Source of the DNA: Phoronis australis
Taxonomy: Eukaryota; Animalia; Phoronida
DNA: 64,000 bases
Direction of reading: 5' to 3'
Assembly (NCBI GenBank): GCA_002633005.1
Contig: NMRA01000123.1
Coordinates: forward strand, 480,553-544,552
How positions within the stretch are numbered: the stretch's first letter is position 1; every line of letters starts with the position of its first letter. Below the pieces are notes generated by a model. The model saw nothing but the letters and a program-made list of their open reading frames with translations, was not told where the DNA came from and ran no database searches. This document shows positions 1-44,535 of the stretch, in pieces. Both the position numbers and the translations under genes were made by a program.

Positions 1-117
1 TTAGCTTTTCCTCTGCGTCGACCTCAGCGTGGCACTTGAGTTCAACGGAGGCTACTTCATCCAGATATCTCAAAACAACATTCCCTCGAGGCTTATCGCT
101 TTTCCATTTTATCGGCT
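1..117 (-). CDS. Exon 12 (runs off window): N-half of 5th Ig domain
   Basis: Acceptor ataattaag|, phase 1; EPIKWKSDKPRGNVVLRYLDEVASVELKCHAEVDAEEKL. The CxAxxD motif resembles the last Ig domain of L1-family proteins. Confidence 0.8.
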
Positions 118-1508
118 CTTAATTATGAAACCAACGTAATCGTTTTCATTATATGCTGAGTTATGAGAACCCGCTTATCGGTAAGAAGACATGTTAACAA
201 TCAACGCCACCAACTTAATTTTATGTCGGATATACAAGTTTGCCTGTTCAATAATATTCTTGCACGTGCATCAGCAGATAAAGTTGAAGTAAACACATGT
301 TTTCTGTCAAAATTCAAAGTTCTACTTTTGTCACGCACCGTTTCTAAGATGAAGAATGAGTTTGGGCTGTGGAAGGACTAGAATTACATTTCCTTTTTTT
401 TCCGTCTGGCGTGAACTTCCAAGGTTATGAGATTGGACATGTGCAGGGAGATCACTTTTATACTCAGTAGGTAACGAGACACTTAACGATAAGTGGACCA
501 ATCCAAAGCTGGATTTCGACAGAAACCACGAGCAGGATTTGCACGCAAGTGGACGGGGAAGCGCGCCCTCTGTTTACTCTAAGTATGCAGCTGATTCTTT
601 GGCAAATCATGGCGCCGTCGCAGAGAAATTAGCGAATGGGCTTTCTTCAGAAATTTTCTAGTAAATTTGCAGAAGTTGCGTTAACACGTTTGTTAGTAGG
701 GTCTTTTCATCGATTTATAGCAGAGCTCAGAAACAAATGGTTACTACTTTTCGTTAGATATTGTCATATGATTTTTGAGTGAAAACATGTTGAAATACTC
801 GTGGCATGTAGTTTGGCTGCCAAAATTGGCTCTTAGACTGGAGCTTAAAAGACTATTCCGGGAATTCAGCCAGAACCTCGTGTCTGTGCGTATAAGAATA
901 ACCAGCCTAAATGTCGGGTTTATTGATTAATTTTGCCGATAAATCGTTGATTGCCTACAACCGTACCTCAACCTACTGATGAACAAACATGATGAAAATG
1001 AAGCAATGAAACAAGGATAGATTTGATACGCTATAACTACTACACTGGATCAAAACTCGGAACTTCTCGTGCAAACTCTCTTGGCTTGTCTCGGAGTCCC
1101 AAGCAGTAATAATAGAATGCATAGCAACGTGCTGGAGGGGTTTTTCAAAGGGTTAGAGCTCGATGGCAATACCGTATTGCTGCGCCATATCCGAAATAAT
1201 GCCTTTTTCTTAACCTTTACCCAAATGGTTTGCACATTGGCGCATGCGCGTAAGTTCTGCATACACATGTCCTGTTAGCGCAGTTTTGCACAGATGCCCA
1301 TAGGACTAATGGCGGCCACACGGCAATATCTAATCTGTAACAAAGTGACTACGAGTTTCTAGCTGAATCTTGCTATAATCAATCAAGTGGACGCAAATGA
1401 CCCATTAAGAGGTGATGGAAATCAGCAAAACATGGCTTAGTGCCTTTTAATGTTATGAATTCGCAACCGAAAGGTTATATGTCTAGCTTTGGAATTGGAA
1501 TAACTCAC

Positions 1509-1670
1509 CCATTGTCTTTATCGTGGCGGTGCGAATCCTATAGCCGAGAGCATTCACCAGAACACACTGTATCATCCACGATTTTTGCATGTTTAGAAAC
1601 TCTATTTTTGTTCCTAGGCTCACAATTACATTTGGTTCTCGTTCAGGTACTATGCTATTTATCCGTGGCC
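1509..1670 (-). CDS. Exon 11: C-half of Ig4
   Basis: ttttttcctacaacacag| ... G|gtgagt, 162 nt, phase 1-1; RPRINSIVPEREPNVIVSLGTKIEFLNMQKSWMIQCVLVNALGYRIRTATIKTM (QCxxxNxxGY F-G strands). Confidence 0.85.
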
Positions 1671-2442
1671 CTGTGTTGTAGGAAAAAATGTAAGTACTTT
1701 TACCTGGCAATTGACTGTTAGAGGTGCACATTCACATGTATGGAGCATACCGCCAGTCCACAACATGCTATAGACGTGGTTGGGTGTCGCCGGAAACAGT
1801 CAATTTCCCAGAGGTTCGATTTGAAGAAACTCACCTAAAAGCTAGGTGGCCACCCGGAACACCTTGTGTATTTTCGTAACTTAAAATCAATCTCGGAAGT
1901 AAACGTAATCCGCACATGAGCAGACTTCACTCACTTGACCAGTCACTGTCCATTGAAATGTCGCACGGGGTACTCTATGACTGAACTTAGTACATGCACA
2001 TTTGGAATTTGACTGAAACTTGGCAATGCTAGGACATTATTGAGAATCCTGTCTTTGATTTTGCAAAATTCACGAATTATTCTAATAACACGAGTTTAAC
2101 TGGATGATAACCCTAGAAAGATGCCGTAGGGAGCACAGGAAAAATTCCACAAGTTATCATTCCGTGAGGATAAGCGGACAACCTTAATGCAAACTGTATC
2201 AAAATAGCGCGCAAACCGGTTGACACGCTCTGTAGTTTGGTGCACCACAACGACACAGTTCAGGGACGTGTTGTAAGCGAAGCGGCATGTTAGACATTTG
2301 GTCAAATCTTGTTAAGTCTTTTAAATAGATCGTTGATGGCAAAGTCATATTAGAAGCAAGCAACTCGTACAGTGTATCACAAACACCCAAAACTACAATA
2401 TCACTTAACACTTTTAGGGGTTTGTCAAGCTCAAAATTACGG

Positions 2443-2750
2443 ATTAGCGAAGTTATTAACACTCTTTTTAAGCTTGCCTCGTGATAATGATGTGACTGAG
2501 TAGGTCCTTTCAGAGAGTTTTAGTCCCATTGGTAAATATCTGGCTAACATGATTTACACTTACCTAGCCAATGCAAAGCAGGACCTCTTGCAGAGAACGC
2601 ATTAGCAAAGTTATTAGCATTCTCTTTAAGCTTGCTTTGTTACAATGGGATATAAAATGAGCCATTTCAGAAACATACACTCTCATTGGCTAACATCTGA
2701 CTAATACCGTTTACACTAGCCAATGAAAAGCACGGTTTCATGCAGAGAAC
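2443..2750. repeat. Two diverged tandem copies of a ~155-bp unit
   Basis: attagcRaagttatta...taagcttgc...cattgg...ctagccaatg...gcagagaac occurs twice (2443-2598, 2601-2750). Confidence 0.8.
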
Positions 2751-2799
2751 AACTTCAGACACACGTGATTGATTCTATTACAATCCACTTGTGTTAAAA

Positions 2800-3010
2800 T
2801 TTCTAAAGCCTTGTTACGATACAACGTTTCCGAACTACATGTATGAAGCTGCAAATTCGTTTTTACGACTTCCTCGAGAGCCCGAAATGCTTAGGATGAG
2901 TAGCTCGGAGTAGTGAAGAATGAAAGGTACATGTACGCTGTTAATAGCACGTATGGGGCCGTGAAACATCTCCGTGTCTGTGGCCGGCATTTTGTCGACA
3001 GTGATTTTTC
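2800..3010 (+). pseudogene. Decayed THAP zinc-finger fragment (DNA transposon relic)
   Basis: FLRLPREPEM...KHLRVCGRHFVDSDF matches the THAP FxxFP...RVCxxHFxxxDF pattern; contains stops/indels. Confidence 0.55.
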
Positions 3011-5200: not shown

Positions 5201-5601
5201 GGCCCGGTCTCCTATCGTTTTACTCGAAATGGAACTCGAAATTAGGTTTGGCATTTTCTACTCTACCTTTGGGCGAACTCAAGATAAGTGTCTATTATTG
5301 TATGCTCGAGTACACAATAACTTACGTAGATAATTTATTGCCCTTAGTTCACAGTTTGTAAACCCAATATTAAAGCAATAAGTTCGAGTTTGAACTCGAA
5401 TTTTCGAGTCCTTACTCGAGTTTGTAGCACGTATATAAGGGTCTTCAAAGGCAACATTGAACTAGAAACTCCTATGCATAAACTATAATGTATTCGAGCA
5501 CAGTCTGATAACCAATTATCTTAAGTTCGCACAAAAGGAGCAGAGAAATTGCCAAAAATAGTTTCGAGTTCGTTTCGAGTACAAAGATTAGAGACCGGGC
5601 C
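5201..5601. mobile_element. MITE, PIF/Harbinger-like (CWG-flanked)
   Basis: TIRs GGCCCGGTCTC...GAGACCGGGCC, flanked by CTG and CAG; internal repeated ctcgaa/ttcgag motifs and longer imperfect subterminal inverted repeats. Confidence 0.75.
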
Positions 5602-7694: not shown

Positions 7695-7832
7695 TGCTTT
7701 GTATCGTGTTGGTGTACCAGATTGGTAAAGAAGTCTGCGGATGTGTGGGGACGCCTTTGCAACTTACAGACCCAGTGCCACCTCTTGTGACATTGACGTC
7801 TTTGGGCTCCCCATCGAGGAACGTCGGAGGAT
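7695..7832 (-). CDS. Exon 10: N-half of Ig4
   Basis: tttttctttacag| ... A|gtaagt, 138 nt, phase 1-1; YPPTFLDGEPKDVNVTRGGTGSVSCKGVPTHPQTSLPIWYTNTIQS. Confidence 0.9.
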
Positions 7833-8439
7833 CTGTAAAGAAAAATTTGCTCGTTTGTGCAGTGGGTCACTTTTCTAACTAGCTAATTATGCACGACGTC
7901 TGTTTTACTGTCGACAAAAGCATTGCTGGATGGAATACAGCTCTTTAAGTTATTAACTTTGGTTTCAACTACAAAACAGCCCAATCAGTTGCTTTTTGTG
8001 GGTATTTACAACCCTCCTGTTCTAGCTTTTGTTTGCTAGACAATCGATGAAATCAAGGTCGCTAAAAATAGTTTACTTGTTTATTGAGTTATGTTTAAAT
8101 ACGACAGCAGAGCGTTAGACAGTGGCAACTAGTGTGGCTGATAAATTTAACTTCACAGCTGAAAATAATGTGACTTCTTCATCAAACAACGGACTGCATT
8201 TAGAAAATCAAACCATCATTATACCAAGAGCCATATCCATTTCGAAAGTACAATTGTGTGAAAATTATTCATAGACACGAATGTGACGTGCACATGTGAA
8301 CGCGCCCCACATCAGACGGTCATGTCCAGTGTCTTGGACAGGCACCTGCCATATCCGAGCTTCCCCGATGTCACATGGGAATTGAAAAGAGTCAGAGCTT
8401 GATTAAATAATAAGTCACAATGTTACAACCACAACCAAC

Positions 8440-12150: not shown

Positions 12151-12338
12151 ACCTCACTTTTACGTTGTAATGGCCACATATCTCATGCTCAAAGAAAAAC
12201 ACAGCGCAGCCCGTGTAAGTTCCCTCGTGGTCTGGGCCGGCGTCCATGAAAATTTTTGAGTTGGGAAGATGGCCATCTTTAATTTTGCTCGGATCCAATG
12301 TCGTCGGATACTCCCACCGCTTGACTTTTGGAGTAGGG
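12151..12338 (-). CDS. Exon 9: C-part of Ig3
   Basis: cctatttcag| ... T|gtaagt, 188 nt, phase 2-1; DPTPKVKRWEYPTTLDPSKIKDGHLPNSKIFMDAGPDHEGTYTGCAVFFFEHEICGHYNVKVR. Confidence 0.88.
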
Positions 12339-13436: not shown

Positions 13437-14650
13437 TACCGGTGGCCACAGACTAAATGCATGACAAAAAATTTAGCTAAACCCATGTTTATTTTGTGTA
13501 ATTAGCTCGAAATTTTGATTTTTCTTTCAATTTTGCCAATTTTCACATTTCCCGCCATGTGACGTCATGGGTTGAACACAAGAGATCGGTGACAAGCATT
13601 GAACAATGGCGGAGACCAGGGAATTTGAAAGTGACGACGATTATGAGCAAGAATTGAACGAATACTATGAAGAAACGTACGGGAATGGTGGCCAGGATGA
13701 GGAAATGGGGTTGCACGAAAGCGAGAACAAGTTTATTGTGCTTCCGGCTGCGTACTTTTCTACTTTGAGCCTTATGAACTGGATCCTCCCGCGAGAGAAG
13801 CGGCCTCGGGCTCGGCGAGTCAACACAGTCATCCAACAGACTTTCCTGAATTAAGAGCTGATGTTTCCGAATGATAAATATTGTCCCGTATTGAACCAGG
13901 CCTTCATCGTAACGTATCCTGTGACTGGAGTCGAAACACGAGTCCTCAAAGTTGGCAGAACACAGAGTGGCCCCGGACCGAATCGCTTGGTCCACGATGA
14001 CGTCCCACAGTGGCCACACTCTCGTTCGGCGCACGAAGCCATGCCACTTCTGCGCAACTTTGGTGTCCTTCGGAACACCGAGACGTTTTCCGCCTGGCTG
14101 CTGTTGCTGCAGCCTCCGGAAACACATCTTTTGATCCCTCTACGAACCTTCTCGACTCTAAATGTACTTTGCTTTCTCTTCACTCTATACACTTTGTCTC
14201 TGACCCGAACAGTATTGCGAACGACTTGGGTTCAACCCATGACGTAGTACATAATTATTACTTTTTTCAGTTTTTGCGTGTTTCTTTATGAGCTGTGCAC
14301 TAAAGGCACTGAAATCAAGTAACATAAAAGAATAAAATTTATTTTGAGGTACTAGAGTCATGTTGTGTACACTTTAAACGAAAATTTGATGATGGCGTAC
14401 ACAAACCAGCACAATCTTAGGCCTACATACATGTAAGCGTGTGTTGGAAGGGGACTCAAGAACAAGTGCAGGCAACCAAATCAGTTTGAAGCTTAAATTG
14501 TCCCGTCTGTCGCTTCCTGTTGGACACGTGACCTGCCGCATGCAGGTACGTACATCATATGAGGTACGAGTGACAGGTACAGTATGTTATGTGTAAACAT
14601 ACATGTATATCCGATATTTAAATATACTCTACCTGGCCACCAGGTATAAA
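13437..14650. mobile_element. Non-autonomous DNA transposon relic with frameshifted THAP (minus) and convergent acidic ORF (plus); possibly Kolobok-related
   Basis: Minus: RCVSGGCSNS...KDTKVAQKWHGFVRRTR...LCSANFEDSCFD (THAP). Plus from 13606: MAETREFESDDDY..., and in a shifted frame FYFEPYE. Weak inverted ends (ggtggcca / tggccacc); boundaries approximate. Confidence 0.6.
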
Positions 14651-14990: not shown

Positions 14991-15099
14991 TCTCCTACAA
15001 ATATGAACTTTAATATAAACTTGTCGCCAGCGTCTACCTCCACATTGTTCTGCTGAAATCCGTCTGGATAGAATAGCCTTGGCGTGTTCGATGGCATGT
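14991..15099 (-). CDS. Exon 8: N-part of Ig3
   Basis: gctattacag| ... GA|gtaagt, 109 nt, phase 1-2; DMPSNTPRLFYPDGFQQNNVEVDAGDKFILKFIFVG (compare the L1 Ig3 pattern PRLLYP...GxxLxLECIxxG). Confidence 0.88.
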
Positions 15100-15687: not shown

Positions 15688-15855
15688 CACTTTTGGATTC
15701 TTCGTACATGAAACGTTTCCCTCTGCCCATAAGAGTTACGCCTAGTACATTGTTTGTCTGACCACAATAAAGGTACGTCGATGAGTTCAGAAAGTCGTGC
15801 ATTTGAGGATTTGTAAAGACGATTGCGCCTGCTATACCTAACAGCTTTGTCTCCC
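15688..15855 (-). CDS. Exon 7: C-half of Ig2
   Basis: gaacctttcag| ... G|gtaagt, 168 nt, phase 1-1; RETKLLGIAGAIVFTNPQMHDFLNSSTYLYCGQTNNVLGVTLMGRGKRFMYEESKS. The exact acceptor is uncertain because several in-frame AGs exist. Confidence 0.82.
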
Positions 15856-18428: not shown

Positions 18429-18894
18429 CAGAGATGGGAAAAGGTTGGGTAACGTGATCCAATGGAAGCACCCAAGGGATGTTTTGCGCAAAACACCCAT
18501 GTATAAAGCTGCTGATTTCCTCGTGTGATGCATGACGTTATCCCATGAAGGATTGCGTGACGTTCATGAATGCAAGGTGTTCTTCGAAACACAGCTCTGG
18601 TGCCCGGTCCTTGGACGCAATTGGCCTACACACGCGAAATCGCAAAATCGCACAAGCCTTTCACGAAATTTCACCATCCATTACGTGCAAAGCATATGAA
18701 TCTTGCGTCTACGGAACTCATCACATTACTTTCAACGGGTCTATAACTTTGACTGGTATCAAATGCCTATGAATCAACTTTCATTTTGGGCATCCAAAAA
18801 AAAACGGATAGCATAAATTAAGCCAATAATAAAAGCGCGTCTGAATATCCAAATAGTGCACCATTTCAATGTTTTGCATATTCATACTTAATAT

Positions 18895-19590
18895 TCATGT
18901 ACAGCTTTGGGCCGAGGTTGGTAAACAGTGACCAAATAAATTCTGACACAAAATTAGTGTCAGTAAAATCGACACACTTCCTTAAGTAAACTAAATTATT
19001 CATCGGTGTTCGAGAAAAACTGGCGTTCTGTCGTTATCCTGCTCCAAAAATTATGGTGCGTTCTTTTGCGTCAGCTTTCGGCACCTAATATTGTATCAGG
19101 TGTTGATCAGTTTCTTTACCCGATTCTTCAATCAACCGTTCTTATTTCCACGAGGATTCGTACATGTTATAACAAAGTATAGGAACTAATTTCGTTTCTT
19201 TACAAAGTTGTAGTTGTTTAATGCCATCAAACCGAAGTTCGAAACCAATTTTGCCGTTTCGAAGCTGTCATCGTCCTCCGACAGACGTCGCAAAATTTTA
19301 AGAAATGGCGCATTCGTGTGTCACAAGCGCGACAGATTTTCCTTTATTACCAAAGACGGAGAATTATGCAAGAAGATGACGCTTATTAGATTGCCCTTTG
19401 CTTTTACTTACCTTCGCCATTGCAGCCGTTTAAAAACGGCTGTAATGGCGAAGGTAAGTGTCGGTTGACTCCCAGACTTTACATGCACCCCCGTCAGTCG
19501 TTTGCTTTGCATATTGATATAAGTTTCACGACGAGGTGACGAGCAGAACTACTGGAGTTCAGTAAAATTTCGGGGTCCAACAGACATTTT
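18895..19590 (+). repeat. Diverged copy of the ~750-bp dispersed repeat family also at 44-49 kb and 55 kb
   Basis: Collinear with 45830-46500 (tacagcttt..., ctgacacaaaatt, ccgattcttcaatcaac, cccagaYttt..catgcaYccc, acgagcagaactac). Confidence 0.8.
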
Positions 19591-20424: not shown

Positions 20425-20634
20425 TTGTAACCGGGATGACCTGGACCAGGCTCGTTTCAGAAATAGGTTTTCCATCACTACAGTTGCCGTTCTCACATAA
20501 TGGTCCCAAAGTGTAAGCTATACTTTGCACCGGGTAGCTATCATGAAGGGGTTCACACGGTATTTTGATAGCTTTCCCTGGCGACGAGTAAAAATCCTGC
20601 GGAGAATCTGAGTTCAAACTCTTGGCAGCCAAAT
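20425..20634 (-). CDS. Exon 6: N-half of Ig2
   Basis: tttttcgttacag| ... A|gtaaga, 210 nt, phase 1-1; YLAAKSLNSDSPQDFYSSPGKAIKIPCEPLHDSYPVQSIAYTLGPLCENGNCSDGKPISETSLVQVIPVT (L1/contactin Ig2-like YL...G...IPCxP..SYP). Confidence 0.85.
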
Positions 20635-20686
20635 CTGTAACGAAAAATTTAATACTCCCTTTAAAAGCAATAGTTCTTATGCAGGT

Positions 20687-25033: not shown

Positions 25034-25245
25034 AGATCACTCGAAGATGAGCGGGGCCCGACATATCTGCTCCGTGAAGATTTTTCACTTGACAATGGTA
25101 AAGGTCAGCATCGTCGGTGGGATGGACACGTGATATGATGAGCCGGCTTCCTTCATTTACTGTCCTGTACTTCTCGATGCTTGTGTTTAATTTTACTGGG
25201 TAGTGATCGTGATAGTACGAACGTTTTCCTTTCCACCAACTTATT
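25034..25245 (-). CDS. Exon 5: C-part of Ig1
   Basis: tttcccacgactcag| ... T|gtaagc, 212 nt, phase 2-1; EISWWKGKRSYYHDHYPVKLNTSIEKYRTVNEGSRLIISRVHPTDDADLYHCQVKNLHGADMSGPAHLRVI (canonical W, LxI, D-x-x-x-Y-x-C). Confidence 0.92.
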
Positions 25246-25309
25246 CTGAGTCGTGGGAAACAAAGGAGTAATTAGCATATAAGCAGGGCCTTAAAAATTG
25301 CTTTTGCAT

Positions 25310-25472
25310 GATATCCAAGCTCTCATTCACTCCCTTGCATACACGCACCAGTAAAGCCGAGCTCAGAGGAGTAAGAGGCATCTTTGCACAATGCTCGATT
25401 GTCAGCCATTAAAGTCAGGATTCGAGCTTGAGCATCCCAAACGGGAGTCCAACTCAAAGCACTGAGCCACAC
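25310..25472 (-). mobile_element. Decayed tRNA-derived SINE
   Basis: Minus strand has an A-box-like GTGGCTCAGTG and a B-box-like GCTCGAATCC, followed by a SINE-body-like segment. Confidence 0.5.
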
Positions 25473-26867
25473 TTTGTCCTTGTAAAGAGGGATTAGTGAC
25501 GCTGAAATTTACGGACTCACAAGTTCCGTGTGCTATTTCTCAGCAAGAGGTACGTGCCTATGCCTGCTGTTTGGTCTTCTAGAGAATTCGACTTCTATTT
25601 TCAGGGGCCCGTTTGATGGAGCTTTTTTCGTCTGAACTAACACCGAAATCAAGCCAACTTCAATTTTTAAACACCAAAACTATGGCCGAAATCGGTTTAA
25701 GCTAACACCGAAAGTTATTCAGCTACGGAATAGGCTGAAAACTGAACTTCTAGTCTAAATGGCCGAACTTTACAACTAATGTCACTGTGAATTGTTGAAA
25801 AACAAATGTTTTAGATATATTTCGAAGTCTAATGTCCATGAACAATGTCCAATTGAAGATGGTGTGCTTCCGATTAGAGAACCCGCAAACCAAACTGAGT
25901 CTATGTAGTGAGCTTTCACTTCACATGTAAAAAGATATCTTCCACTTAAACCAGGGAGATCTCATGCCGAATGAGGACTCGACCATATCCAAAGTCTTGC
26001 AAATAACCGCCATCGAAATTTTAAAAAGCAAGATTTTTCTTCAAACCGTAATTCACAAACTGTGTCGCTAAGTGTTGTGAATTCACAACTGACTGCAAAG
26101 ACGCAGATTGTTTGGTCACGCAGTCACAAACAGAATTATTTTCTAAGTGAGGGGCATACCCAACACCGTCCTGGAGTTCATCAAATGGTCTATTATGAAG
26201 TTTTATCTTAATTTAAACACATTTTTGGTCTAAAAAAAGTATTTCAACACTTTAAGTCTTTTAAAAGAAGCACTTTTTATGGACCGGGTTCTTGAGCTCC
26301 AGGGCACGAGATCGGGACTCTTAACACATACAGTACTTAAATACTCCACTCAACCTTGTTCAAGCTTACAAAACTATTCGCAAATCCCGAGGTATGAGGT
26401 TTTCATCGAAACCACTGCCAGAGTCCCAACGACTAAGTCGATTAGATAACTTATCTATACACGTGTAGTTTTGGTTCTCTCACAAATTAAGGGAATCACC
26501 CCCAGAGGACTTAAGTTACTTCGCTGCGTGAAGGAAAACCACACTTACTGAGTTCGTACAATGGCCATGTGTCACACAAAAGAATTTTATTAAGATATCT
26601 TAAGAGATTTAGTAGATTTTAGTATGCCTGTTGTTACGAAACTAGCGAAAATTTTAAAAATTATTATGTATATTTTTCTGTTATCGGCGTTGTACTTAAT
26701 GGGTGGATGACTGTCTCCACCGTTGTTGTTTTTACCAGTGCGATACTGAGGAGTTGCGAGGAAAGTCCGTCAGACGTGAAAAGATGCGTTTGTGGAGGCT
26801 GTAGTAACAGCAACTTTACTCAGAACGTCTATGTGTTCAAATTTTGTAAATACATGCATAGAAAAAC

Positions 26868-27023
26868 TGTTAACGTTGATGATCCCAGATTCGATTCGAG
26901 TCCGTTCTTAAAAGACACACTACAGCCATTTTTGAGGAAGTCACTTGGTATCTATTTTTCAGACAGCGGAGAGCGTACATCAAACAACACGCCATCTAGC
27001 GGTCGCAATACATAATCTTTACA
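26868..27023 (-). repeat. 3' LTR (156 bp)
   Basis: Direct repeat of 31056-31212, adjacent to the PPT. Confidence 0.95.
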
Positions 27024-27080
27024 CCCTTCCCCTCAAGCTTGGAAAACTTAACTACAGGAACAACAAACAGTTTTACAAGT

Positions 27081-29996
27081 TCAACCTGTCCGGGGGCTTA
27101 ACATTTCTGAGCGAACGTCTAAGAGCCGGTACTGGCGGAGCTTCCGGAAAACAGGCACAGATGCTGAGGGTGATTCCACGACATCCCTGTTAGATTCGGG
27201 AACAATGGGTGAACTCAACATATCATCAGGGCTTGTCGCTGAATCAGGCACATTAACATTAGGCACAGGTTCAATCATTACCAGAAGACAAATGATAGTT
27301 ACTTCTACACTTCTATCATGCAAACTGGGAGATGTACAATCTAGCTGCATCTGGTCAACATGACGTCTGTAATATTTGTCATTGACAGATTTCACCAAAT
27401 ACATGCGAGACCCTAAACTTTCCATAATGATACCTGGCAACTTATTAGGGCCAACACCAAAGTTTTGAAACAGAACCTTATCACCAATCTCAAATACACG
27501 TAATTTACCAGATTTGTGATTTTCACATTGAAAAGCTTGTTTAGTTTTGACTCGGCTAGTGAAATCAGGTTTCACTCTGTTTAAAGCAGTCATTAATCTA
27601 CGATTCATAAGCAACTCTGCGTGTGTAACTCCCGTCACAGAATGTGGTCGTGTTCTGTAGCTCAGTAAAACCCGTGACAAACGTGTTTCGAGCGACCCTT
27701 CTGCGACACGCTTCAAACCATTCTTGATAATCTGCACTGCCCTTTCTGCAGCGTCGTTCGATGCAGGCTTAAATGGCGCACTAGTGACATGCTTAATACC
27801 GTTTTTCACAAGAAAATCTTGGAATGTCCGACTAATAAATGCACTAACATTATCTGAAACAATGGTATCAGGCAAACCATGGGTTGCAAAAATACGACGT
27901 AATTTCTCAATGGTCAACTCAGCAGTAATGCTGCTCATGGTACATGACTCAATCCATTTAGAGTAGGCATCAATGACTATGAGAAAATACGTACCGAGAA
28001 ATGGTCCAGCAAAATCAATATGAAGACTTTCCCAAGGTGCGGTAGGGAGCTGCCACATGCTCAATGGTGCCTCAGCAGGTTTCTTACTCAACATTTAACA
28101 AGTTTTACATTTCCTAACAACATCACTGAATCTAAACCAGGCCACCAAACATAGTTTCTACTCAAAGATTTCATAGCACAAATACCAGGATGTGCATCAT
28201 GTAACTCATCTAAAATCTTAACACGACCTTGCGGGGGAATAATCACACGTGATCCCCACAAAACTAAGTTGTCTTGTACACTTAGTTCAAGCTTCCTGCT
28301 TACATAGGGTGTCAAATCATCAAGTAACTCAGGTGGTAACTTATCCCAACTACCTGACATAATACATGACTTAACAGTAGATAACACAGGTCACGACTTG
28401 TCCAAAGTCTCAACTGCGATGCAGATACAGGAGATTCACTATTTTGTAATGTTTGCAACAACAAAACCAGATCACCAGGGGTAGGAGTGTTTACCTCCTG
28501 AAACGGCAATGGCAATCTACTGAGAGCATCTGCAACACAATTGGGTGATCCCTTACGATAACAAATACAGTAATCATAACCTGACAACGTCAAGGCCCAA
28601 CGCTGCATTCTGGCAGACGCCATAGGAGGTATAGATTCTGTCCCATGTAAAAGGGTTAAAAGGGGTTTGTGATCTGTTTCTAGTGCTAATTTACGACCCC
28701 AAACATACTGGTGCATTTTCTTAACAGCGAAAACACAAGCTAGACCCTCCTTGTCAACCATCCCATAGTTTCGTTCGGCCTTGTTCAAAGATCTAGATGC
28801 ATATGCAATAGGCGATTCAATTCCATCAGGGTTTATGCGAGACAAAGTGCAACCTAAACCATACGAAGACGCATCACACGACAGTAGTAATGGTTTATCA
28901 GGGTCATAATGAACTAACAATGGAGATGAACACAGCAGTTCCTTCGCACCATCAAATGCCCTCTGACACTCTGCCGACCAAAACCAAGTTTGATTACGCC
29001 TCAACAACCGATGAAGAGGTTCAAGTGATGTACTCAAATCACGCAAAAAAGATCCATAATGGTTTAGCATACCCAAAAAGGCTTTGAGTTCAGAGGCATT
29101 TGATGGTACGGGAGCATTCAAGATAGCTTTAACACGATCCTGAGTAGGGCGAAGTCCTTCAGAGGTGACGCGACGACCCAAATACAACCTCTGACTGCAT
29201 CAGTGAATACTTGTCTTTACGGAGCCGAAGACCGGATTCTGAGAAACGATGCAGTACTTCACGCAGATTGTCTAAGTGTTCCCTATCATCAACGCCAGTA
29301 ACAAGCACGTCATCAAGGTACACAACTACGTGCGAGATACCTTTCAACAATGTTTCCATATGGCGTTGAAACAGACCTAATACCAAACGGACACCTGTTG
29401 TAGACAAACAATCCGGGGTGTGTGTAAATAGTGGTATACATTTTGGACTGCTCGTCCAACTCAAGTTGGTTGTAAGCGTTCGACATGTCCAACTTCGTGA
29501 ACTTCTGTCCACCGGCTAATGACGCAAACAAATCGTCCATACACGGAATCGTATAGCGGTCTAACTGAGAAACTTTGTTCACAGTTAATTTGTAGTCACC
29601 ACAGATACGCAATGACTGACCATCAGCCTTGATAACTGGCACAATGGGCGCAGCCCAATCAATGAACTCAACTGGTTTAACGATGTCAAGCCTCTGCAAA
29701 CGATGCAACTCCTCTTCTATTCTAATGCGCATAGCATGAGGCACAGAGCGAGCTTTGCAGAACAGTGGTGTGACGTCAGGGTCCACATGAATTTTAGCCT
29801 TCACATCGCGCAAAGTACCTAAAACCGGTTCGAACAAAGTTGGAAATTCATCCAACACATTTTTAGACACATCAACAGAGTTGACTGGTGTTCCTTGCAT
29901 GTTGAACTCGCGCAACCAACTGCGACCCAACAACGTTGGACCTGCACTCTCCACAATCCACAACTTCAGATCCTCGACACAACCTCGGTATTTCAC
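27081..29996 (-). pseudogene. pol: Gypsy pol (RT, RNase H, integrase) broken into several frames
   Basis: WAAPIVPVIK, LRICGDYK, YLDD, CDASSYGLG, TDHKPL, NCVADALSRL, LHDAHPG..WWPG, HIDFAGPF, DTIVSDN, AERAVQ. Confidence 0.93.
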
Positions 29997-30038
29997 AGAA
30001 ACAATGCATGAACCGGCAACCGGTATCGGTTCCTTAAT

Positions 30039-31037
30039 TTACGTACGCAATGGCAACTCTTCTGGATGCGAATCATCACTCCACGTCTCGAAAAATGTGT
30101 CACGAGACATAAGTGAACGACTGGAACCATTGTCAACCTCCATGGTAACAGGTATTCCATTAAGAGTCAATGTCAACCTGTCTGGCTCATCACCGATAGT
30201 TTCATTTATGTGATACACACCATAGGCATCCACCTCCTGTGTGTCCTCTTGAGACGTTTCTTGAGAGCCTGGAGACACAGATACATGGTGGGTTGAATGA
30301 CATACCTTTTTAATGTGCCCTATCTTACTACATTTGTAACATGTGGCATTTATGAACCGGCACTCATGAACCTTGTGCTTGCCTTTGCAACGCCAGCATG
30401 ATCCATTGAAGTTTGACGGTGTGGAGCTATTTCCACGAGTTCTACGAGGTGCAGGGTTGGGCTTGGGTTTCACCCCACCTTCAGCTCCAGCTACTTTGTG
30501 AACATCTTGCGGTGCTGGGCGGATTTCTTTAGAGTCCTTCTTCGCCGCCTCCATAGCAACCACAATGTCAACGGCATCTTGAAACTTCAAGTTTTTCTCC
30601 CGTAAGACACGTTGTTGCATTTTATCTGAGTAAAGGCCCATAACCAACTGGTCTCTTAGACGCTCCTCAAGTGTAGTTTTAAAATCACAGTGAATACTTA
30701 GGGTTTTCAACGCCGCAATATAATCACGGGTGGACTCTGTGGGCTTTTGTATCTTTTTCATGAATCGGAAACGTTCCATAATCACCACCGGTTTTGGAGA
30801 GTAATGTTCTTTCAGCGTAGCGACGCATTGTTGAAACGTTTTGTCCTTAGGGGCTGCCGGAGACACCAATGTTTTCAACAGATCATAAGCCGTTTCACCG
30901 ATAACGGCTAAAAAACAACTAACATGTTTTCCGGAGGGCAAATCATTTGCCTCGAAATACGCCTCCAATCGTTCGATGTATGACTCAAAGTTAGTTGATT
31001 CTGTTAATGGAGATATTGATCCAATTAAAGACGACAT
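30039..31037 (-). CDS. gag: Gypsy gag-protease (in-frame stop in the protease region)
   Basis: ATG after the PBS (MSSLIG); YIERLEAYFEAN, ERFRF, LRDQLV; knuckles CWRCKGKHKVHEC and CYKCSKIGHIKKVC; protease motif reads VDNG rather than DTG. Confidence 0.88.
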   Translation of the reverse strand: MSSLIGSISPLTESTNFESYIERLEAYFEANDLPSGKHVSCFLAVIGETAYDLLKTLVSPAAPKDKTFQQCVATLKEHYSPKPVVIMERFRFMKKIQKPTESTRDYIAALKTLSIHCDFKTTLEERLRDQLVMGLYSDKMQQRVLREKNLKFQDAVDIVVAMEAAKKDSKEIRPAPQDVHKVAGAEGGVKPKPNPAPRRTRGNSSTPSNFNGSCWRCKGKHKVHECRFINATCYKCSKIGHIKKVCHSTHHVSVSPGSQETSQEDTQEVDAYGVYHINETIGDEPDRLTLTLNGIPVTMEVDNGSSRSLMSRDTFFETWSDDSHPEELPLRT

Positions 31038-31055
31038 TTTTATCTCGTCGCCAAC

Positions 31056-31212
31056 TGTTAACGTTGATGATCCCAGATTCGATTCGAGTCCGTTCTTAAA
31101 AGACACACTACAGCCATTTTTGAGGAAGTCACTTGACATCTATTTTGCAGGCAGCGGAGAGCGTACATCAAACAACACGTCATCTAGCGGTCACAATACA
31201 TAATCTATTACA
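31056..31212 (-). repeat. 5' LTR (157 bp)
   Basis: Direct repeat of 26868-27023 with about 6 substitutions and 1 indel; adjacent to the PBS. Confidence 0.95.
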
Positions 31213-31917
31213 AAAACTGAACTGAAATACATGTAGAATCGGTTTGTGCGCCGCACGAGAGTGTGGAATGTCAGCCGTGCAGAGCAGGTGATTCAATCGG
31301 GAGCTACACTTATTTCAACGCGTTTAAAGGCATCGTGTTTCGACCACACACAAAAGCGGCGTTGCGATGGAAGTCTCTCCACCTTGTAAGTGTATTTGAA
31401 AGTTTTATAGAAAAACGAGCAAATCGTCCTCGTCTTCTGATCAACTGTGTTCCGCCATTGCAATTGATTGTCAAGTGGCCAAACGTCTTCCACACCTTAC
31501 ATCATTTGAGAGGAAACTTGGAAACAACTAACTTTTCTTCAAAATTAAAAAATCGCTACTGCTTGACATATAAGTGATTATTTACTTAGATTTAATGGCA
31601 TTCTTTCATTTTAGCTAACTGAAACCTCAAAAACTGAGAAAATGCACGGTGGAAAATCTTAAAAGGTGGTATCCGTTCCTTGAGGACGAACGGTTTGCGC
31701 TAAAAGTGCATATACTCAATCGTATGTTCTCTTCACCGTTTGGTCTTATTTGTCCAGCACGTGACCTTGATGTCGCCAGAACAACGTAAGCGGTTACACG
31801 CGTAGGCTGAATTTCAAATAGTACCATCTTCTTACCTTGGGTCATTATAACCAATGCGAAAACAATAGACAACGCGATTAGCAAGTTCAAAGAAGGCGAA
31901 GTACATTCAGTAATACG

Positions 31918-32013
31918 TCAACAGTGCACGTAGGCGCACGTTGTCGCACGTAGGCGCACGTAGGCGCAGCAAGCCATCTTTTGACATTTGAACGTAGCGC
32001 CTACGCACTGTTA
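31918..32013. repeat. Mini inverted-repeat element with gcacgtaggc repeats
   Basis: aacagtgcacgtaggcgc ... gcgcctacgcactgtt. Confidence 0.55.
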
Positions 32014-32478
32014 GTTAGGTTCAGTGATCAAGATGATACGGTATGCTTTCGGCCCCTACTTACCTGTAATTTCATAATTTCATCACTACAGCACTGAGCT
32101 ATTATTAAAATAATTTTCAGTCTTTCTCATTAACATAAGTAATCATTGGCGGATATTTTAAGCAAACCGGGGCATCGTCACAGTCTAGAACTGAGAGCAA
32201 TGGCCGTGTTTAGATAAGTCAGCTGGCGCAACTGCACAACAGACATGTTCGTAAAATGCAAACACTCATGTTTCCACGTGGACAATGAGTGTAATTGCCT
32301 GTATGAGACATGGGCACAGATTTCTTTGAACATGAAACAAATGCAGACCTATATCATTAGTCATTGATCCCAACTGCCGGAATTCGCTGAGAGCTGCCTA
32401 AATGCATTTACATGTATTAATGCATTGCTTCACCTTTTCTTAAGTTTTCGGATGAGCAGAAAACATTAGATTACTTAC

Positions 32479-32590
32479 TCGGGTTTCGGCATTCCAGTTA
32501 CGATACAATCGAATACAGCATTCTGGCCCTGGCGAAGGATCTGATCACGTGGGTTTTCAATAACTCTTGGACGTTTCATAACTGTTTTCT
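32479..32590 (-). CDS. Exon 4: N-part of Ig1
   Basis: ccgttgtacag| ... GA|gtaagt, 112 nt, phase 1-2; EKTVMKRPRVIENPRDQILRQGQNAVFDCIVTGMPKP (I-set A-A'-B strands). Confidence 0.92.
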
Positions 32591-32770
32591 CTGTACAACG
32601 GAAACAAAAACAGCGTTGTACAAATCATATCAAGAAGTAACAAAAGTTAAACGGTAGATGGTACAGACGTGTAAATCGAGATCCTGATATAATCCTAGCA
32701 AAGTAGGACGCGAGAACATGCAAGCACAATAATGGTCCACCACATTTGTCCTACGAAGATTGGGAGCATA

Positions 32771-34184
32771 CAGTACAGCCACTGAATTTTTAGACTTCGT
32801 CCGGGCCACCTCACGCCTGGACAGACCGGAGCGCAACCGGAACACAGGCGTGACAGAAATCAGTCACAGTCGCCTCACGCCCACTCTCCGGGTAGTCCTC
32901 ACGCTTACCTCCAGTTTAGTTAACGCCTTCCTCACGCCTCGTTCACGCTTTTTTCGCGCCTCCGTCAGGATTACCTCAAGCTTTCTTCACGCCTTCGGTA
33001 GCTGTGGTAACCATGGTAGGGCACCGGGCTAATCAGTAAAAATACATGTAACGTCTTGATTGCCTGTCGTTTCGGTCAAGTTGCAAAGATATTATAGTAT
33101 ATTATAGAGTATCTTTGCAAGCAGTCATCTATCACACTTGGGTTCCGACTAACTCTGTAACTCCACGTGTTGTTCATACAAACGTCTTCCTTCAGCTCGT
33201 CTTGTGTTACACTTACATGTACATGTTCAATTTACGACTTAAGAGCCAGTCCCATCAACGACAAACATGTACAGTAACCACTATTAGTAAATGCGAATAA
33301 ACGCGACCCTGTGCCCAGAGTCATCTTTACATGGCTGTGGACTCCTTGAAACTTGTCACGGGTGGACATAGTTAATTCGCCTTAAAAATAGCCTGCGCAT
33401 CTTGTGAAGTATTGCGTCACTCCGTAAATTTTTGCACCGCACTGGCGTACAGAAAATTTCAATAGGCCGCCCTTCTGACATACCCATCCCTTACTGCAAG
33501 CAAATGTTTTGACTTAAAAGTCCTGAATCCGTAGTGCAGTTCAATTATCTGTAGCCCACTCCCCGTAGTACATGCGTATCGGCTGAGTACACAGCATCCC
33601 CGGGGTACTTCTTCACTAAAATAATAATAGCGGTCATCTGTTTAACTCGTCAAATGCATGAGCGTGATCAGTTTTCTCCGCATGATGCCAGAACTTGGGA
33701 TCAATGTGCTCAGAATTGACATGCTATGCTCCTTCATATCGTGAAGGCAATTGAATAATTCCGCCGTGTACACGTGTGTCAAGACTCTTTATTAGTTTAT
33801 ATCAAAAACAAATAATTTTATAGACATGTAAGTGAAAAGTAAAGTCCACAGGTCTGTTTTCTGAAGTGACTTAAGATTTGAGACGGAAATTTTGGTCTTT
33901 TACTGCATCTGACGATTTCAAAAAAAAAATTAAACTTCACTTGGGCAAAAGTCTATGAGAATACACACATCACTGCTAGTTACTGATGTAATTTACTTTA
34001 TCATCTGCGATGCAGGTAAACTCACGCCTAACTCACGGTAAGCTTGGGGTACAGTCACGCTTAGGCTTACGCCAGCTGTCACGGTTGATTCACGCCTCAC
34101 TCTCCGGTCTGTCTCCGGTTACGGTCACGAGTGGCTGGACCGGAGAGACACCTGAGAGAGTCTAATAATTCAGTGGCTGTACTG
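32771..34184. mobile_element. Tc1/mariner-type non-autonomous element
   Basis: TA|CAGTACAGCCACTGAATT...AATTCAGTGGCTGTACTG|TA; ~27-bp TIRs, TA TSD, many subterminal cacgcc motifs. Confidence 0.85.
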
Positions 34185-34757
34185 TACGTAGCGTAAAAAT
34201 GATTAGATGTTGCGTTTGATGGAACTCCGATCAGTGCTACTTAAAAAAACGGAGAGAGAATGGCATTTACCTCCATAACGTTTTGCAAATGTTTCAGTAG
34301 CAATTCCTTTTACAGGTATTTGCTGTGGATTAAAGACTTTAACAGGTGGAACATAAAAGGGTGAGAACCCATTGTGACTCGCGGACACGTGACCTCGTCG
34401 GTAACACAGAATGTTTTTAATCATAACATCAGACCACTGAAAACTAAAAATAATCTTATAAGTGTATTTGGATCGAGTGAAGATAATTTCTCTTCATTGT
34501 CTACTATGTAATAGCTAACCGGTACACTGAACTGAGTGAAGTGCAAAAGGATAAAATCATGAGGTACTCGTAGGAACTGACTAGACATACGCGAATGATG
34601 CGTGACATGTCAGTAGAGAGGAATACACTTTGAATGGGTTTAAACACTTTGTATCACAAACATATTTTCAAGGATCATGCTGCAATGACTGAAATTTTCA
34701 CATCTACTTGTTCTACTGTACACTGCTTGGGTCAAGATTGTTAGATGACCCTGATTG

Positions 34758-34800
34758 CTTGTCCTGACGATTATGTTTGAGACATCGAAACATGTTGAAG
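34758..34800 (+). ncRNA. Candidate decayed minimal hammerhead ribozyme (Penelope-type)
   Basis: CTGACGA - ATGT/ACAT stem - CGAAA - palindromic (AA)CATGTT; stem I pairing is imperfect. Confidence 0.3.
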
Positions 34801-35437
34801 TTGAAAAATCTGGTTTTACTTTTGAATATTGTTAATCAAAAGTATTGACATTGTGAGGAATTCTCAATTTTCAAGTAGTACTCAAGAGAGTTAGACCACC
34901 GATGTAGCATGAGTAAAACCTCGAGGGAATGAGCAAATGTAATAAAAAATGAGACGGCTACTACTTAGCGTTCTTGAAAGTTGCCCAATACATAATGCAA
35001 CTTTTGAAGACTCCAATTCACAAATTGATACGTTATCATACATAGCTAAATTATATTTACTAAATTTCCAACCACTCTCAATGAATGAATCCTAACAATT
35101 CATAACCTGCACTAGGATGGTTTTTTCAAGTCATAATTCGCAATAATAATGACAGTAACACTTAAATTGAAACAACGCCAATATTTGCATTTTGCTTCTT
35201 ATCTAGGGCAAAGTAACATTATCGATACCAATCGTGGGATGGACGTCTTGAAAATGCGTCTGTTTGGGTGCAATTACGTAAAGTAAACTTTGTTTTTTTT
35301 TTGAAAAATGCACTGAACATTTTTGTAAGTTTTTATTCCAGTATTAGACTCAAACTTTATTTGTTTTCTCAACTGGATGTCTCAAAATGTTCATGCTTTT
35401 ATTTTCGTTTTTCATAGCACCTACTATAATTTCTCAC

Positions 35438-35581
35438 CCATGCATCGTCCGTAGACCATAACTCTTTGAGCTAAATCACGGCAAACGCACTTTCGACCAC
35501 TCCGCTGCACGTTACAACGTTGTTGGTCTTCGGGACACTTTAGGCCTCTGTCCAATGTGTTGCAAGGTACCTCGGTTGAGT
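35438..35581 (-). CDS. Exon 3: third 6-Cys module
   Basis: tttttcttaag| ... G|gtgaga, 144 nt, phase 1-1; DSTEVPCNTLDRGLKCPEDQQRCNVQRSGRKCVCRDLAQRVMVYGRCM. Confidence 0.85.
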
Positions 35582-35649
35582 CTTAAGAAAAAAACGTATG
35601 TTACGGTATCATTAGTTCACATGTTTTCTACTATCACCTGAAACGACAT

Positions 35650-35912
35650 AATCACAATCGTCATCGTCATCGTTGGCGTCACCGTCATTGTCAACCTCAT
35701 CATTAGCATGACCATCATCGTCACCATAACCATCGTCATTGTCATATCCGTCATCGTCAAAATTGCCATCGGCATTACGTAATCACCATCAGCACCATCG
35801 TTATTGACCTTACCATAGTCATGAACGCCGCTAACAACATCATCATCGTCGGCAATATCGTCATCAGCACCTTTATTATCATCGCGAATAACAGCAAAAT
35901 CATCAGCATTGA
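35650..35912. repeat. Degenerate (CAT/CGT)n trinucleotide repeat, intronic
   Basis: catcgtcatcgt...catcatcatcgtc; it explains the spurious D/M/T-rich ORF 35617-35961. Confidence 0.85.
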
Positions 35913-36035
35913 AACCATTAGAAGTGTGAAACAGTAGCGTTAAGTTGGAATAAGATAACAATTACGTTATCATTTCTTTCACACTGTTAAAACTGTTAGC
36001 ATCCATGTTTTGCTAAAAATGAACTTGATGCCTAC

Positions 36036-36155
36036 CTTTGCAGGAATTGTTGTACTCCAATTTATTTTCAGGACATGCGCATAGTCTTGAACTGCACGTC
36101 ATCAAAGGATCAGGGCACTTAAGACCGGACGATTCACACGGTACCATTCCCGGCA
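36036..36155 (-). CDS. Exon 2: second 6-Cys module
   Basis: gaccttacag| ... G|gtaggc, 120 nt, phase 1-1; MPGMVPCESSGLKCPDPLMTCSSRLCACPENKLEYNNSCK. Confidence 0.85.
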
Positions 36156-38410
36156 CTGTAAGGTCAATAGTTCATCTCGACAGAACCGGAATGCAAAGTG
36201 GCATATTGACATGGTCTTGTGCATCAAATTCGCTTCAATGTCAAAAATACAATATATGTAACGTAGCACTTAAACAACACGACAGTGTCCGCCAAGCTTG
36301 GGGAACTGTATGATGCAAAGAACAAAACAATAGGTGAAACACGTAACTTTATATTGAAAGTAATATGGCCGACTCAAATTTGACAAATGGGGGTAGGACA
36401 GGGCGAGGGATGCAGACAGGCAAACTCGGATGGAAAATTCGCAAACTCAATTAAATGACCCTCGGAGACCTTTTATCGACTAACTGTTGTCAGAAAAGTG
36501 CACACGCAGACACTGTCTGGGAACTCCTCTCGACACACATTCTCATACGCTTGCTTGCACTGAAGGTTTACTGTCTGTTAGAATGCACGTTGCCTTCGTG
36601 GATTGAATGATGTAGGCGCTAAAGGGATTCTCGGCTGCTGAATTACACAGAGCTTCGATCTCTCAGGGATCCAAGTGATTTGTGTTTTTCGTAACTAGAC
36701 ATTGAGGCACGTGTAGCCAGGTAAGAGTGGTTTGTCATGACTGTTGACGTACAAGCTTGCGGCTAGACCACACTGTTCCACAGATCCGTCGATCACTATC
36801 CTTAATTAATCGCAAAGACGGTTAATTACTATACATGTCAAAACTTCTGACTGTCTCAGTTACAGAGATCAAGATATCAATGCAGCAAACAAAAGATGGT
36901 GTCTTCTGATAAACGGCAAAGTGTGAAATGGTGCCAGACAGTATCTTGTAAGTTCAATGTAAAACCTTTTGTTTCTAATACGGTCCGTGGTAGCGTGCAA
37001 TTATCCTTGGGTCCATGACCAACCCATCACCGTAGTACTCAGTGGAACAATGGTAGTTTTGCGATCCTGTAGATGTATACCTCTCTTGTCCGTAGCCTCC
37101 GAGATTCAAAGTCCATATTGTCGAGAAGTTCAGTATATCTATTTCCTTTGTTTAGGCCACAAACAACAATAGAAGTCAGGTTATGTCTTCAGTTTAATTA
37201 TCTTGAAATTTGATTTTTCAGCCACTGCAGCCTATATAACCGTTATTGTCGATCCACCTTCGGCAAGTAAAAACAATGGCAACGCTGTAAAGAAGAACTA
37301 GTTCCTGGAACCCAGAAATCACATCTAGCATATTATCTGAGTAAGAAACTTAAGTTGATCCCAGTTTTAAGATAAACGATGGAAATCAGAATTGAATATT
37401 TTCACGGACGACTAGCTACTAACAGTTTTTAGTGTACAGCTACATTATGGATCTACAGGAGAACAAAATGTGATGGCGAGCTCCACGGTATCTTTTTACT
37501 AGTCGTCCAGGGGTCAGTTTCGTGACAAGTGGCTTTAAGAGACTGAAATAAAATGTGGACTTACGCTCTACACAACTACATGTATTTCTGACATAATGAA
37601 TCTCATGTGAGCAAAAGAACAAAGTGTTTCATGGGCGGCGCAGCACTGAAAAAGTGGGACTATAGCCTCCCCCCTATGGTGCGCCCCCCATGTGTTTGAA
37701 AGATGAAATACAAACCTGTCTTTAATTGAAATAAACTATAGGCTAATTTCAGACTGATGCAGAATGCACTCATACATGTAGTTACTTGGATTAGGTATTT
37801 GCTGAACACTTTTAAAGTTGGAAGCGTAAGATCGAATGTTTGTCTCAAGTCAAAATCCATTTTGATGAAAAGCCTCCCAGTTTTTCGAAGAGATATGAAT
37901 GATGAGTAATAATGTTCACGGACGAAGCGTTAAGAGATGGAACTTTTAATTCACATCCGCGCCATGTACAAAGAGGAGAACAATGTCATGATGGCCATCT
38001 CCAAGCTGTGGTTTTCCTGGAAACTAATGGCCAGAACTGCACAGAAGTTAGAAATAATGCTACAGATGTGCTGTATTGCAGAGGACACGTGTTTTCTGTG
38101 GAAAACAATAGATGCTTTTATGTCGGTTTTTCAACAACTTTGGTGCGCCGACGACTGTTCGTGTTCTCTGCAGTGGGAATGGTGTTCAGGTTAAATGTAG
38201 GATACATTATTAGAAGGTGCACGATAATAGTGTGGAGTTGTATAACAGCCAGCTGTTTATTCCATTATGCATATTTTAACAATATACATGTAGGATGTCT
38301 TATTCAACATTTCGAGCTGCTCAAGACATTCACATCACATTAACGGGCATCAATAGTCAAACTCAGTTACATCAAAATGGCGCTAAGGCCGTAATTCTGG
38401 ATCAACTTAC

Positions 38411-38551
38411 TTGTGCATTTGCCGTCTGGATATTCCATGGTAGGAGGTTTGCAGTAACATAATCCATTAGTCCTTCTGCATGCCATGCTGGGGTTGGAAC
38501 AGTAGCTGCCGCCGTGAGCACAGTGGAAATAACTTTTGGCTTCACTGAATC
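38411..38551 (-). CDS. Exon 1 of those found on minus: signal-peptide tail and first 6-Cys module
   Basis: cctgtcaatag| ... A|gtaagt, 141 nt, phase 1-1; GFSEAKSYFHCAHGGSYCSNPSMACRRTNGLCYCKPPTMEYPDGKCT. Confidence 0.85.
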
Positions 38552-44520: not shown

Positions 44521-44535
44521 CTTTTTTCTCTGAAA

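What the first reader, a model, noticed from the sequence alone, without database searches (positions are those of the whole stretch)
1..38551. Hidden 12-exon gene: three 6-Cys modules grafted onto an L1/neuroglian/hemolin-type Ig array
Seen: twelve small exons across 38 kb splice in phase into one ~607-codon frame. Three symmetric phase 1-1 exons each encode C-x6-8-C-x6-C-x4-8-C-x-C-x10-13-C, and they are followed by Ig1-Ig4 and the start of a fifth Ig. Known: L1, neuroglian, hemolin and contactin begin directly with the Ig1-4 horseshoe after the signal peptide, and phase 1-1 exons are the usual units of exon shuffling. Inference: this is a lineage-specific adhesion or immune-recognition protein with a shuffled Cys-rich cap. 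Each Cys exon could be skipped in frame, allowing 0-3-module isoforms. The fifth Ig looks more like L1 Ig6, suggesting Ig5 was lost.
Basis: partly seen in the sequence, partly recalled or inferred. Interest (0 to 1): 0.78.

Follow-up and report, generated by a model that had tools for sequence, protein, structure and literature searches.

The report
VWA-capped offshoot of L1 adhesion molecule
This is a real, spliced animal gene that joins a von Willebrand A domain and three small cysteine-rich modules to a chain of immunoglobulin domains likely copied from an L1/contactin-type nerve-adhesion gene, and it is likely a fast-evolving cell-surface or secreted recognition protein.

Summary
The 12 minus-strand exons are real: one stop-free frame with canonical splice sites. 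RNA reads join Cys1-Cys2-Cys3-Ig1 (7, 10 and 18 reads, in 2 of 4 runs). It encodes a signal-like peptide and a VWA domain whose metal-binding motif is degenerate. In-window architecture: signal-VWA-spacer-3 Cys modules-Ig1-4-start of a fifth Ig, 906 codons, running off the window. The Cys modules are EB/EGF-like, not a new fold. Intron phases match human L1CAM at all 7 boundaries I could document, and one intron position matches exactly, so the Ig array likely descends from an L1/contactin gene. Ig3 lacks its usual first cysteine. A second expressed copy (captured reads 88-95% identical) differs mostly at amino-acid-changing sites (rough pN/pS 0.9); paralogue versus allele is unresolved. No homologue was found. 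Exon skipping was not seen, and loss of Ig5 is untested. A cap on such an Ig array has a precedent in fly Contactin. Verdict: new variant of a known kind.

The parts
44565..45462 (-).
   Evidence: Pfam VWA E 1.4e-5, above gathering score; Atlas 10 of 10 top family hits VWA; joint to 38551 in 11 reads; unspliced coverage through 45446 to about 45490-45570
38411..38551 (-). Cys module 1 (EB/EGF-like), phase 1-1
   Evidence: joints in 11 and 7 reads; similarity to module 2 z 5.3
36036..36155 (-). Cys module 2 (EB/EGF-like), phase 1-1
   Evidence: Pfam EB PF01683 E 4.5e-4, 20.7 bits, below cut-off 24.3; joints in 7 and 10 reads
35438..35581 (-). Cys module 3 (EB/EGF-like), phase 1-1
   Evidence: similarity to module 2 z 6.6; joints in 10 and 18 reads
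32479..32590 (-). Ig1 first half, phase 1-2
   Evidence: Pfam I-set positions 1-30, E 1.3e-3, below cut-off; joint from Cys3 in 18 reads
25034..25245 (-). Ig1 second half, phase 2-1
   Evidence: Pfam Ig_3 positions 33-78, E 8e-4; PDB hits are contactins, Dscam, NCAM, Robo
20425..20634 (-). Ig2 first half with about 29-codon insertion carrying an extra Cys pair, phase 1-1 (predicted exon)
   Evidence: splice sites and frame; size 210 vs 123 in L1CAM; Atlas Ig-like leads only
15688..15855 (-). Ig2 second half, phase 1-1 (predicted exon)
   Evidence: size 168 vs 171 in L1CAM
14991..15099 (-). Ig3 first half; Phe700 in place of the B-strand Cys; phase 1-2 (predicted exon)
   Evidence: size 109 vs 112; intron 5 codons after the Cys position, as in L1CAM
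12151..12338 (-). Ig3 second half, Cys749 and Cys759, phase 2-1 (predicted exon)
7695..7832 (-). Ig4 first half, phase 1-1 (predicted exon)
1509..1670 (-). Ig4 second half, phase 1-1 (predicted exon)
1..117 (-). Start of a fifth Ig domain, cut by the window edge (predicted exon)
   Evidence: no Pfam or PDB hit

Best explanation
This is a spliced gene that joins a VWA exon and three cysteine-rich exons to an Ig exon array, and it is likely a lineage-specific duplicate of an L1/contactin-type adhesion gene that gained a new front end by exon shuffling and likely works as a fast-evolving extracellular recognition protein. Shown: the transcript links VWA, three EB/EGF-like modules and Ig1; the VWA has lost the DxSxS metal site; a second divergent copy is expressed. 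Inferred mechanism: the signal peptide exports the protein. The VWA head binds a partner (matrix protein, other cell surface or microbe) without a metal ion. The three disulfide-stapled modules hold it away from the Ig array, which serves as stalk and perhaps still pairs with other Ig proteins. Whether the Ig1-4 horseshoe survives is doubtful, given the lost Ig3 cysteine and the Ig2 insertion. Membrane anchoring lies outside the window and is unknown.
For: RNA joints VWA->Cys1->Cys2->Cys3->Ig1 in 11, 7, 10 and 18 reads, all from the minus strand. Coverage reads through 45446 unspliced, so ATG 45462 and the hydrophobic stretch are in the RNA. VWA: Pfam above cut-off, Atlas, one generic VWA hit at 25%; in that alignment DxSxS is replaced and the later Asp is kept. 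L1 ancestry: phases 1,2,1,1,1,2...,1 equal L1CAM at 7 of 7 documented boundaries; exon sizes 112/212/210/168/109 vs 106/203/123/171/112; Ig3 intron at Cys+5 in both. Half-domain profiles hit neural I-set proteins. Fast evolution: reads on the VWA exon are bimodal (X1 38 at 99+%, 0 at 95-99, 37 below 95; X2 44, 2, 13); 24 of 32 changed codons change the residue, rough pN/pS 0.94. No homologue found.
Against: No function was tested. Exons after Ig1a have no read support, and 7 of the 9 Ig exons have no Pfam hit alone. Pairwise similarity among Ig1-4 is weak (best z 2.8). PDB profile hits do not single out L1: Dscam, contactin-2, DCC and Robo score better than neurofascin. Of the 18 reads at the Cys3->Ig1 joint, the 16 whose letters are listed carry a non-reference base at 32589, so they may come from another allele or the sister copy. 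The pN/pS figure uses only sites in reads at 88% identity or more, and a value near 1 fits relaxed selection as well as positive selection. The signal peptide is judged from hydropathy only. Novel domain mixes are common in invertebrate genomes (general knowledge).
Confidence: 0.6

Rival explanations
1. A structural matrix or junction protein (matrilin- or hemicentin-like use of VWA plus EGF-like plus Ig repeats) with no recognition role; the second copy is a redundant paralogue under relaxed selection.
For: The top Atlas cluster for the VWA is matrilin-2-like. VWA followed by EGF-like repeats is the matrilin layout (recalled). pN/pS near 1 fits relaxation. The ratio of the two read classes differs between X1 and X2 (Fisher p 0.0013), as for paralogues with different expression.
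Against: The MIDAS is lost. No homologue exists in 1.84 billion representatives beyond a generic VWA, unlike conserved matrix proteins. Expression is low and absent from X3.
Confidence: 0.22
2. The two read classes are alleles of one hyperpolymorphic locus used in self/non-self or gamete recognition, like sponge Aggregation Factors.
For: Variant and reference letters are near 50:50 at many sites. The indels at 45051-45064 sum to -6 nt, keeping the frame. Sponge AFs combine single-exon VWA domains, phase-1 shuffling and high polymorphism (PMC5400394 abstract and section 15).
Against: X1 and X2 share the same variant letters at 44909-45087. The class ratio differs between runs. There is no DNA run or genome to separate allele from paralogue.
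Confidence: 0.12
3. This is the species' only L1 or contactin orthologue, with an extra N-terminal cap, as fly Contactin has a C-type lectin domain.
For: Intron pattern matches L1CAM; precedent for a cap.
Against: Extreme divergence: exon 5 found no scoring relative, Ig3 has lost its first Cys, and a second copy exists. True orthologues are well conserved across phyla (PMC10084454 passages on distribution; conservation level recalled).
Confidence: 0.06

Closest known systems
L1 family (L1CAM, neurofascin, neuroglian)
   Same: Two exons per Ig domain with matching phases at 7 of 7 documented boundaries, similar exon sizes, same Ig3 intron position; I-set profile hits include neurofascin.
   Different: VWA plus three EB-like modules precede Ig1; Ig3 lacks its B-strand Cys; Ig2 has an insertion; six Ig, five FN3, membrane span and ankyrin-binding tail are not visible in the window.
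Contactins, especially Drosophila Contactin
   Same: Horseshoe-type Ig array; fly Contactin carries an extra C-type lectin-like domain (PMC8006247 Table 1; N-terminal position recalled); best PDB hits of exon 5 are contactins.
   Different: The cap is VWA plus EB-like modules, not a lectin; GPI anchor and FN3 untested; the Ig4 internal intron is phase 1 here as in L1CAM, whereas I recall phase 0 for CNTN1 (recalled, not checked).
Hemolin
   Same: Four-Ig horseshoe protein related to neural adhesion molecules and redeployed in recognition (PMC9163686 passages): a model for how this gene may work.
   Different: Hemolin has four Ig domains only; this gene has a VWA-Cys cap and at least five Ig.
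Matrilins and hemicentin
   Same: N-terminal VWA followed by EGF-like modules (matrilin) or an Ig array (hemicentin); both layouts recalled; top Atlas cluster is matrilin-2-like.
   Different: MIDAS is lost here; the Ig exons carry the L1-type intron pattern; VWA identity to any hit is only 25%.
Sponge Aggregation Factors
   Same: Single-exon VWA, phase-1 exon shuffling, high sequence variation, proposed recognition role (PMC5400394).
   Different: No Calx-beta or Wreath domain; not homologous, an analogy only.

Membership tests
L1 family | L1-type exon-intron pattern of Ig1-4 | tested here: met
   Phases equal at 7 of 7 boundaries read from papers; two internal boundaries (c.991, c.1123) are recalled only and not counted. 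The pattern may be shared with contactins.
L1 family | Mature protein begins with Ig1 after the signal peptide | tested here: not met
   About 430 residues (VWA, spacer, three Cys modules) precede Ig1.
L1 family | Six Ig plus five FN3, membrane span, ankyrin-binding tail | not testable with these tools
   Gene runs off the window at position 1; no genome held.
L1 family | Canonical Cys-Cys disulfide in each Ig | tested here: not met
   Ig3 has Phe700 at the B-strand Cys position; its only Cys are 749 and 759.
L1 family | Sequence closer to L1 than to other neural I-set proteins | tested here: inconclusive
   Exon and profile searches hit contactins, Dscam, DCC, Robo and neurofascin alike; single exons 6, 7, 8 and 12 gave no neural Ig hit.
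L1/contactin/hemolin | Ig1-4 horseshoe fold | not testable with these tools
Contactin | Six Ig, four FN3, GPI anchor | not testable with these tools
   C-terminus outside the window.
VWA domain (PF00092) | Profile match above gathering score | tested here: met
   25.8 bits vs 23.8, E 1.4e-5; Atlas 10 of 10.
VWA domain (PF00092) | Intact MIDAS (DxSxS...T...D) | tested here: not met
   Aligned to P0003 and integrin alpha-M, the DxSxS positions read P-C-I-G-I; the later Asp is kept.
EB module (PF01683) / EGF-like | Profile match above gathering score | tested here: inconclusive
   1 of 3 modules matches at 20.7 bits, below 24.3, over profile positions 22-52 only; its model's single VIA hit is NELL1 EGF at Z 2.3, rmsd 2.4, 32 aligned, Foldseek none. 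EB, WR1 and EGF form a continuum (PMC11257444 passage).
Sponge Aggregation Factor | Calx-beta and Wreath domains | tested here: not met
   No Calx-beta match in Pfam scans of the in-window exons; Wreath was not scanned.

The most novel reading that the evidence does not exclude
A previously undescribed hypervariable recognition locus built on an L1 scaffold: a metal-free VWA head on a three-module stalk and an L1-derived Ig array, whose expressed variants differ by over 10% mostly at residue-changing sites because they are under diversifying selection for self/non-self, gamete or pathogen recognition. It would be an independent, hemolin-like recruitment of a neural adhesion gene.
Probability: 0.2. 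Interest if true: 0.85.

Novelty: new variant of a known kind. Interest (0 to 1): 0.57.

Why it matters
L1-type genes usually keep a fixed layout. Here the ancestral intron pattern is preserved while four modules were added in front and the sequence diverged beyond database recognition, which makes a clean, RNA-verified case of exon shuffling onto a neural adhesion scaffold. If the second copy reflects diversifying selection, the gene is a concrete candidate for invertebrate self/non-self or pathogen recognition, a field with few known molecules. If it is a relaxed paralogue, it is one more lineage-specific mosaic protein.

Tried and rejected
No genome held, so the 3' end and the second copy could not be located. 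No RNA holder was listed by the index; runs came by species label only. Word-based homologue searches found nothing for the VWA exon (514-2000 aa only), Ig1b or the neighbouring ORF; this is weak evidence of absence. Single-sequence AlphaFold of the VWA exon failed (pLDDT 36) and was not used. PDB searches: exons 6, 7, 8 and 12 gave only chance hits or none; the three-module profile gave none. Foldseek with the module-2 model gave none. My first idea of a splice acceptor at 45446 was rejected: reads run through it. An intron in the 5' untranslated region at 45496 is not excluded. Scans for a hidden Ig5 exon in 1508-118 and for extra phase-compatible exons in other introns found no convincing candidate. 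No DNA-level similarity among the three Cys exons or their flanks, so they are not a recent tandem duplication. Ten paper searches listed no paper describing this architecture; I saw only listings for most hits, subscription journals and supplements were not covered. Earlier-findings look-ups were empty.
Full report
Observation. The window is animal-like DNA of about 41% GC with many transposon remnants. A motif scan finds exactly three six-cysteine stretches, all on the minus strand; 100 shuffles give 0.01 on average. All have AG/GT ends and join into 1821 nt with no stop.

RNA test. Three raw RNA runs and one contig set carrying the same species label were laid on 31300-45800. Joints with minus-strand splice ends: Cys3->Ig1a 18 reads (X1 10, X2 8), Cys2->Cys3 10 (9, 1), Cys1->Cys2 7 (3, 4). 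X3 and X4 show none. Caveat: the 16 reads at the Cys3->Ig1a joint whose letters are listed differ from the reference at 32589, so they may come from another allele or copy. No exon-skipping joint appears among the 15 joints shown; 16 weaker joints were not displayed.

The missing start. An unexpected joint links 44565 to 38551 in 11 reads. The upstream exon lies in an ORF with a VWA match above Pfam's cut-off, backed by the Atlas and one generic multi-VWA hit at 25% identity among 1.84 billion representatives. A second lay on 44500-45780 shows coverage running unspliced through my candidate acceptor at 45446 and fading at about 45490-45570, with no joint or loose end listed there. The first in-frame ATG is 45462, followed by the most hydrophobic 9-residue stretch of the protein (aa 11-19), read as a signal peptide (inference). 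An out-of-frame ATG at 45476 lies just upstream in poorer context. The 13 exons give 906 codons without a stop. The VWA lacks the DxSxS part of the metal site but keeps the later Asp.

Cys modules. Module 2 matches Pfam EB below cut-off, and it resembles modules 1 and 3 (z 5.3 and 6.6; modules 1 vs 3 z 0.9). Its model (pLDDT 69) has one weak structural hit, to NELL1 EGF domains (Z 2.3). A passage in PMC11257444 treats EB, WR1 and EGF as a continuum. They are best called EB/EGF-like.

Ig array. Only the two Ig1 exons hit Pfam, as complementary halves of one I-set domain. Profiles of the half-domains hit neural I-set proteins broadly without singling out L1. The stronger evidence is gene structure. 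Human L1CAM exon ends were read from splice-variant names in passages of PMC9482388, PMC10913327 and PMC11869245: c.91, 197, 400, 523, 694, 806 and 1267. Their phases (1,2,1,1,1,2,1) equal those here at 7 of 7. Exon sizes are 106/203/123/171/112 against 112/212/210/168/109, and the next three exons total 461 against 488 nt. Phase 1 at domain edges is general for Ig genes (general knowledge), so the internal introns carry the weight. The Ig3 intron falls five codons after Cys264 in L1CAM and five codons after Phe700 here, which also shows that this Ig3 has lost its first cysteine. Contactins probably share much of this pattern (recalled), so the claim is L1/contactin descent, leaning L1.

A second copy. 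Reads on the VWA exon fall into two classes with almost nothing between: 99+% (38 of 75 in X1, 44 of 59 in X2) and below 95% (37 and 13). Of 40 listed differences, 36 are coding; 24 of 32 affected codons change the residue. Rough pN/pS is 0.94, compatible with neutrality and not with omega 0.2 (p 3e-5). This covers only reads at 88% identity or more. The listed indels sum to -6 nt, so the frame holds. The class ratio differs between runs (p 0.0013), which leans to a paralogue, but alleles are not excluded.

How it likely works. Shown: transcription, splicing of the front five exons, domain order, loss of the metal site, a divergent expressed copy. Inferred: export by the signal peptide; metal-free ligand binding by the VWA head; the Cys modules as a rigid spacer; the Ig array as stalk and possible Ig-Ig contact. 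I put 0.6 on a fast-evolving recognition or adhesion protein derived from an L1/contactin duplicate, 0.22 on a structural matrix protein with a relaxed paralogue, 0.12 on a single hyperpolymorphic locus and 0.06 on a capped orthologue.

Comparison with known systems. Fly Contactin already has a lectin-like extra domain (PMC8006247 Table 1 passage). Hemolin shows a neural-adhesion-like horseshoe used in immunity (PMC9163686 passages). Sponge Aggregation Factors show shuffled single-exon VWA domains with high variation (PMC5400394 abstract and section 15). PMC10084454 (passages) gives the standard layouts. Matrilin and hemicentin layouts are recalled. None has signal-VWA-3xEB-L1-type Ig, and ten searches listed no such paper. 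The gene fails strict L1 membership (begins with a cap, Ig3 disulfide lost) while clearly descending from that kind of gene.

Verdict. Real gene, observation confirmed and extended; new variant of a known kind; interest 0.57, with a 0.2 chance of a more striking hypervariable recognition locus.

Noticed in passing
window 26865-31212 (-): LTR retrotransposon of Ty3/Gypsy order (160-bp LTRs 95.6% alike; gag, RT, RNase H and integrase Pfam hits; frame broken in several places) inside the intron that splits Ig1.
   Followed up: partly
window 58392-60455 (-): Orphan 688-aa ORF with a hydrophobic span near its start and a long helical-looking remainder; no homologue found. A strong GTAAGT donor lies 2 nt after its stop (58386).
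   Followed up: partly
window 36947-37222 (+): Antisense spliced RNA (GT..AG on the + strand, 5 reads in X1 and 6 in X2) within the intron between Cys exons 1 and 2, with low + strand coverage across about 36100-40000.
   Followed up: no
window 63316-63803 (+): PIF/Harbinger-like transposase fragments (DDE_Tnp_4, E 2e-4, below cut-off).
   Followed up: no
window 44000-49200, 55344-57792, 18890-19580: Cluster of related non-autonomous repeats, including a 1.1-kb element in two inverted copies 95% alike (46885-48004 and 56662-57792), just upstream of the gene's start.
   Followed up: no
window 40000-42500: Highly covered transcribed repeat or element in the first intron, in all four runs, mostly opposite strand to the gene.
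   Followed up: no
window 13546-14231 (-): THAP-like ORF fragment (Pfam THAP E 0.12, weak) in the intron inside Ig3.
   Followed up: no
window 32589: Listed joint reads carry G (12) or A (4) on the + strand instead of the reference C: polymorphism, second copy or assembly error.
   Followed up: partly
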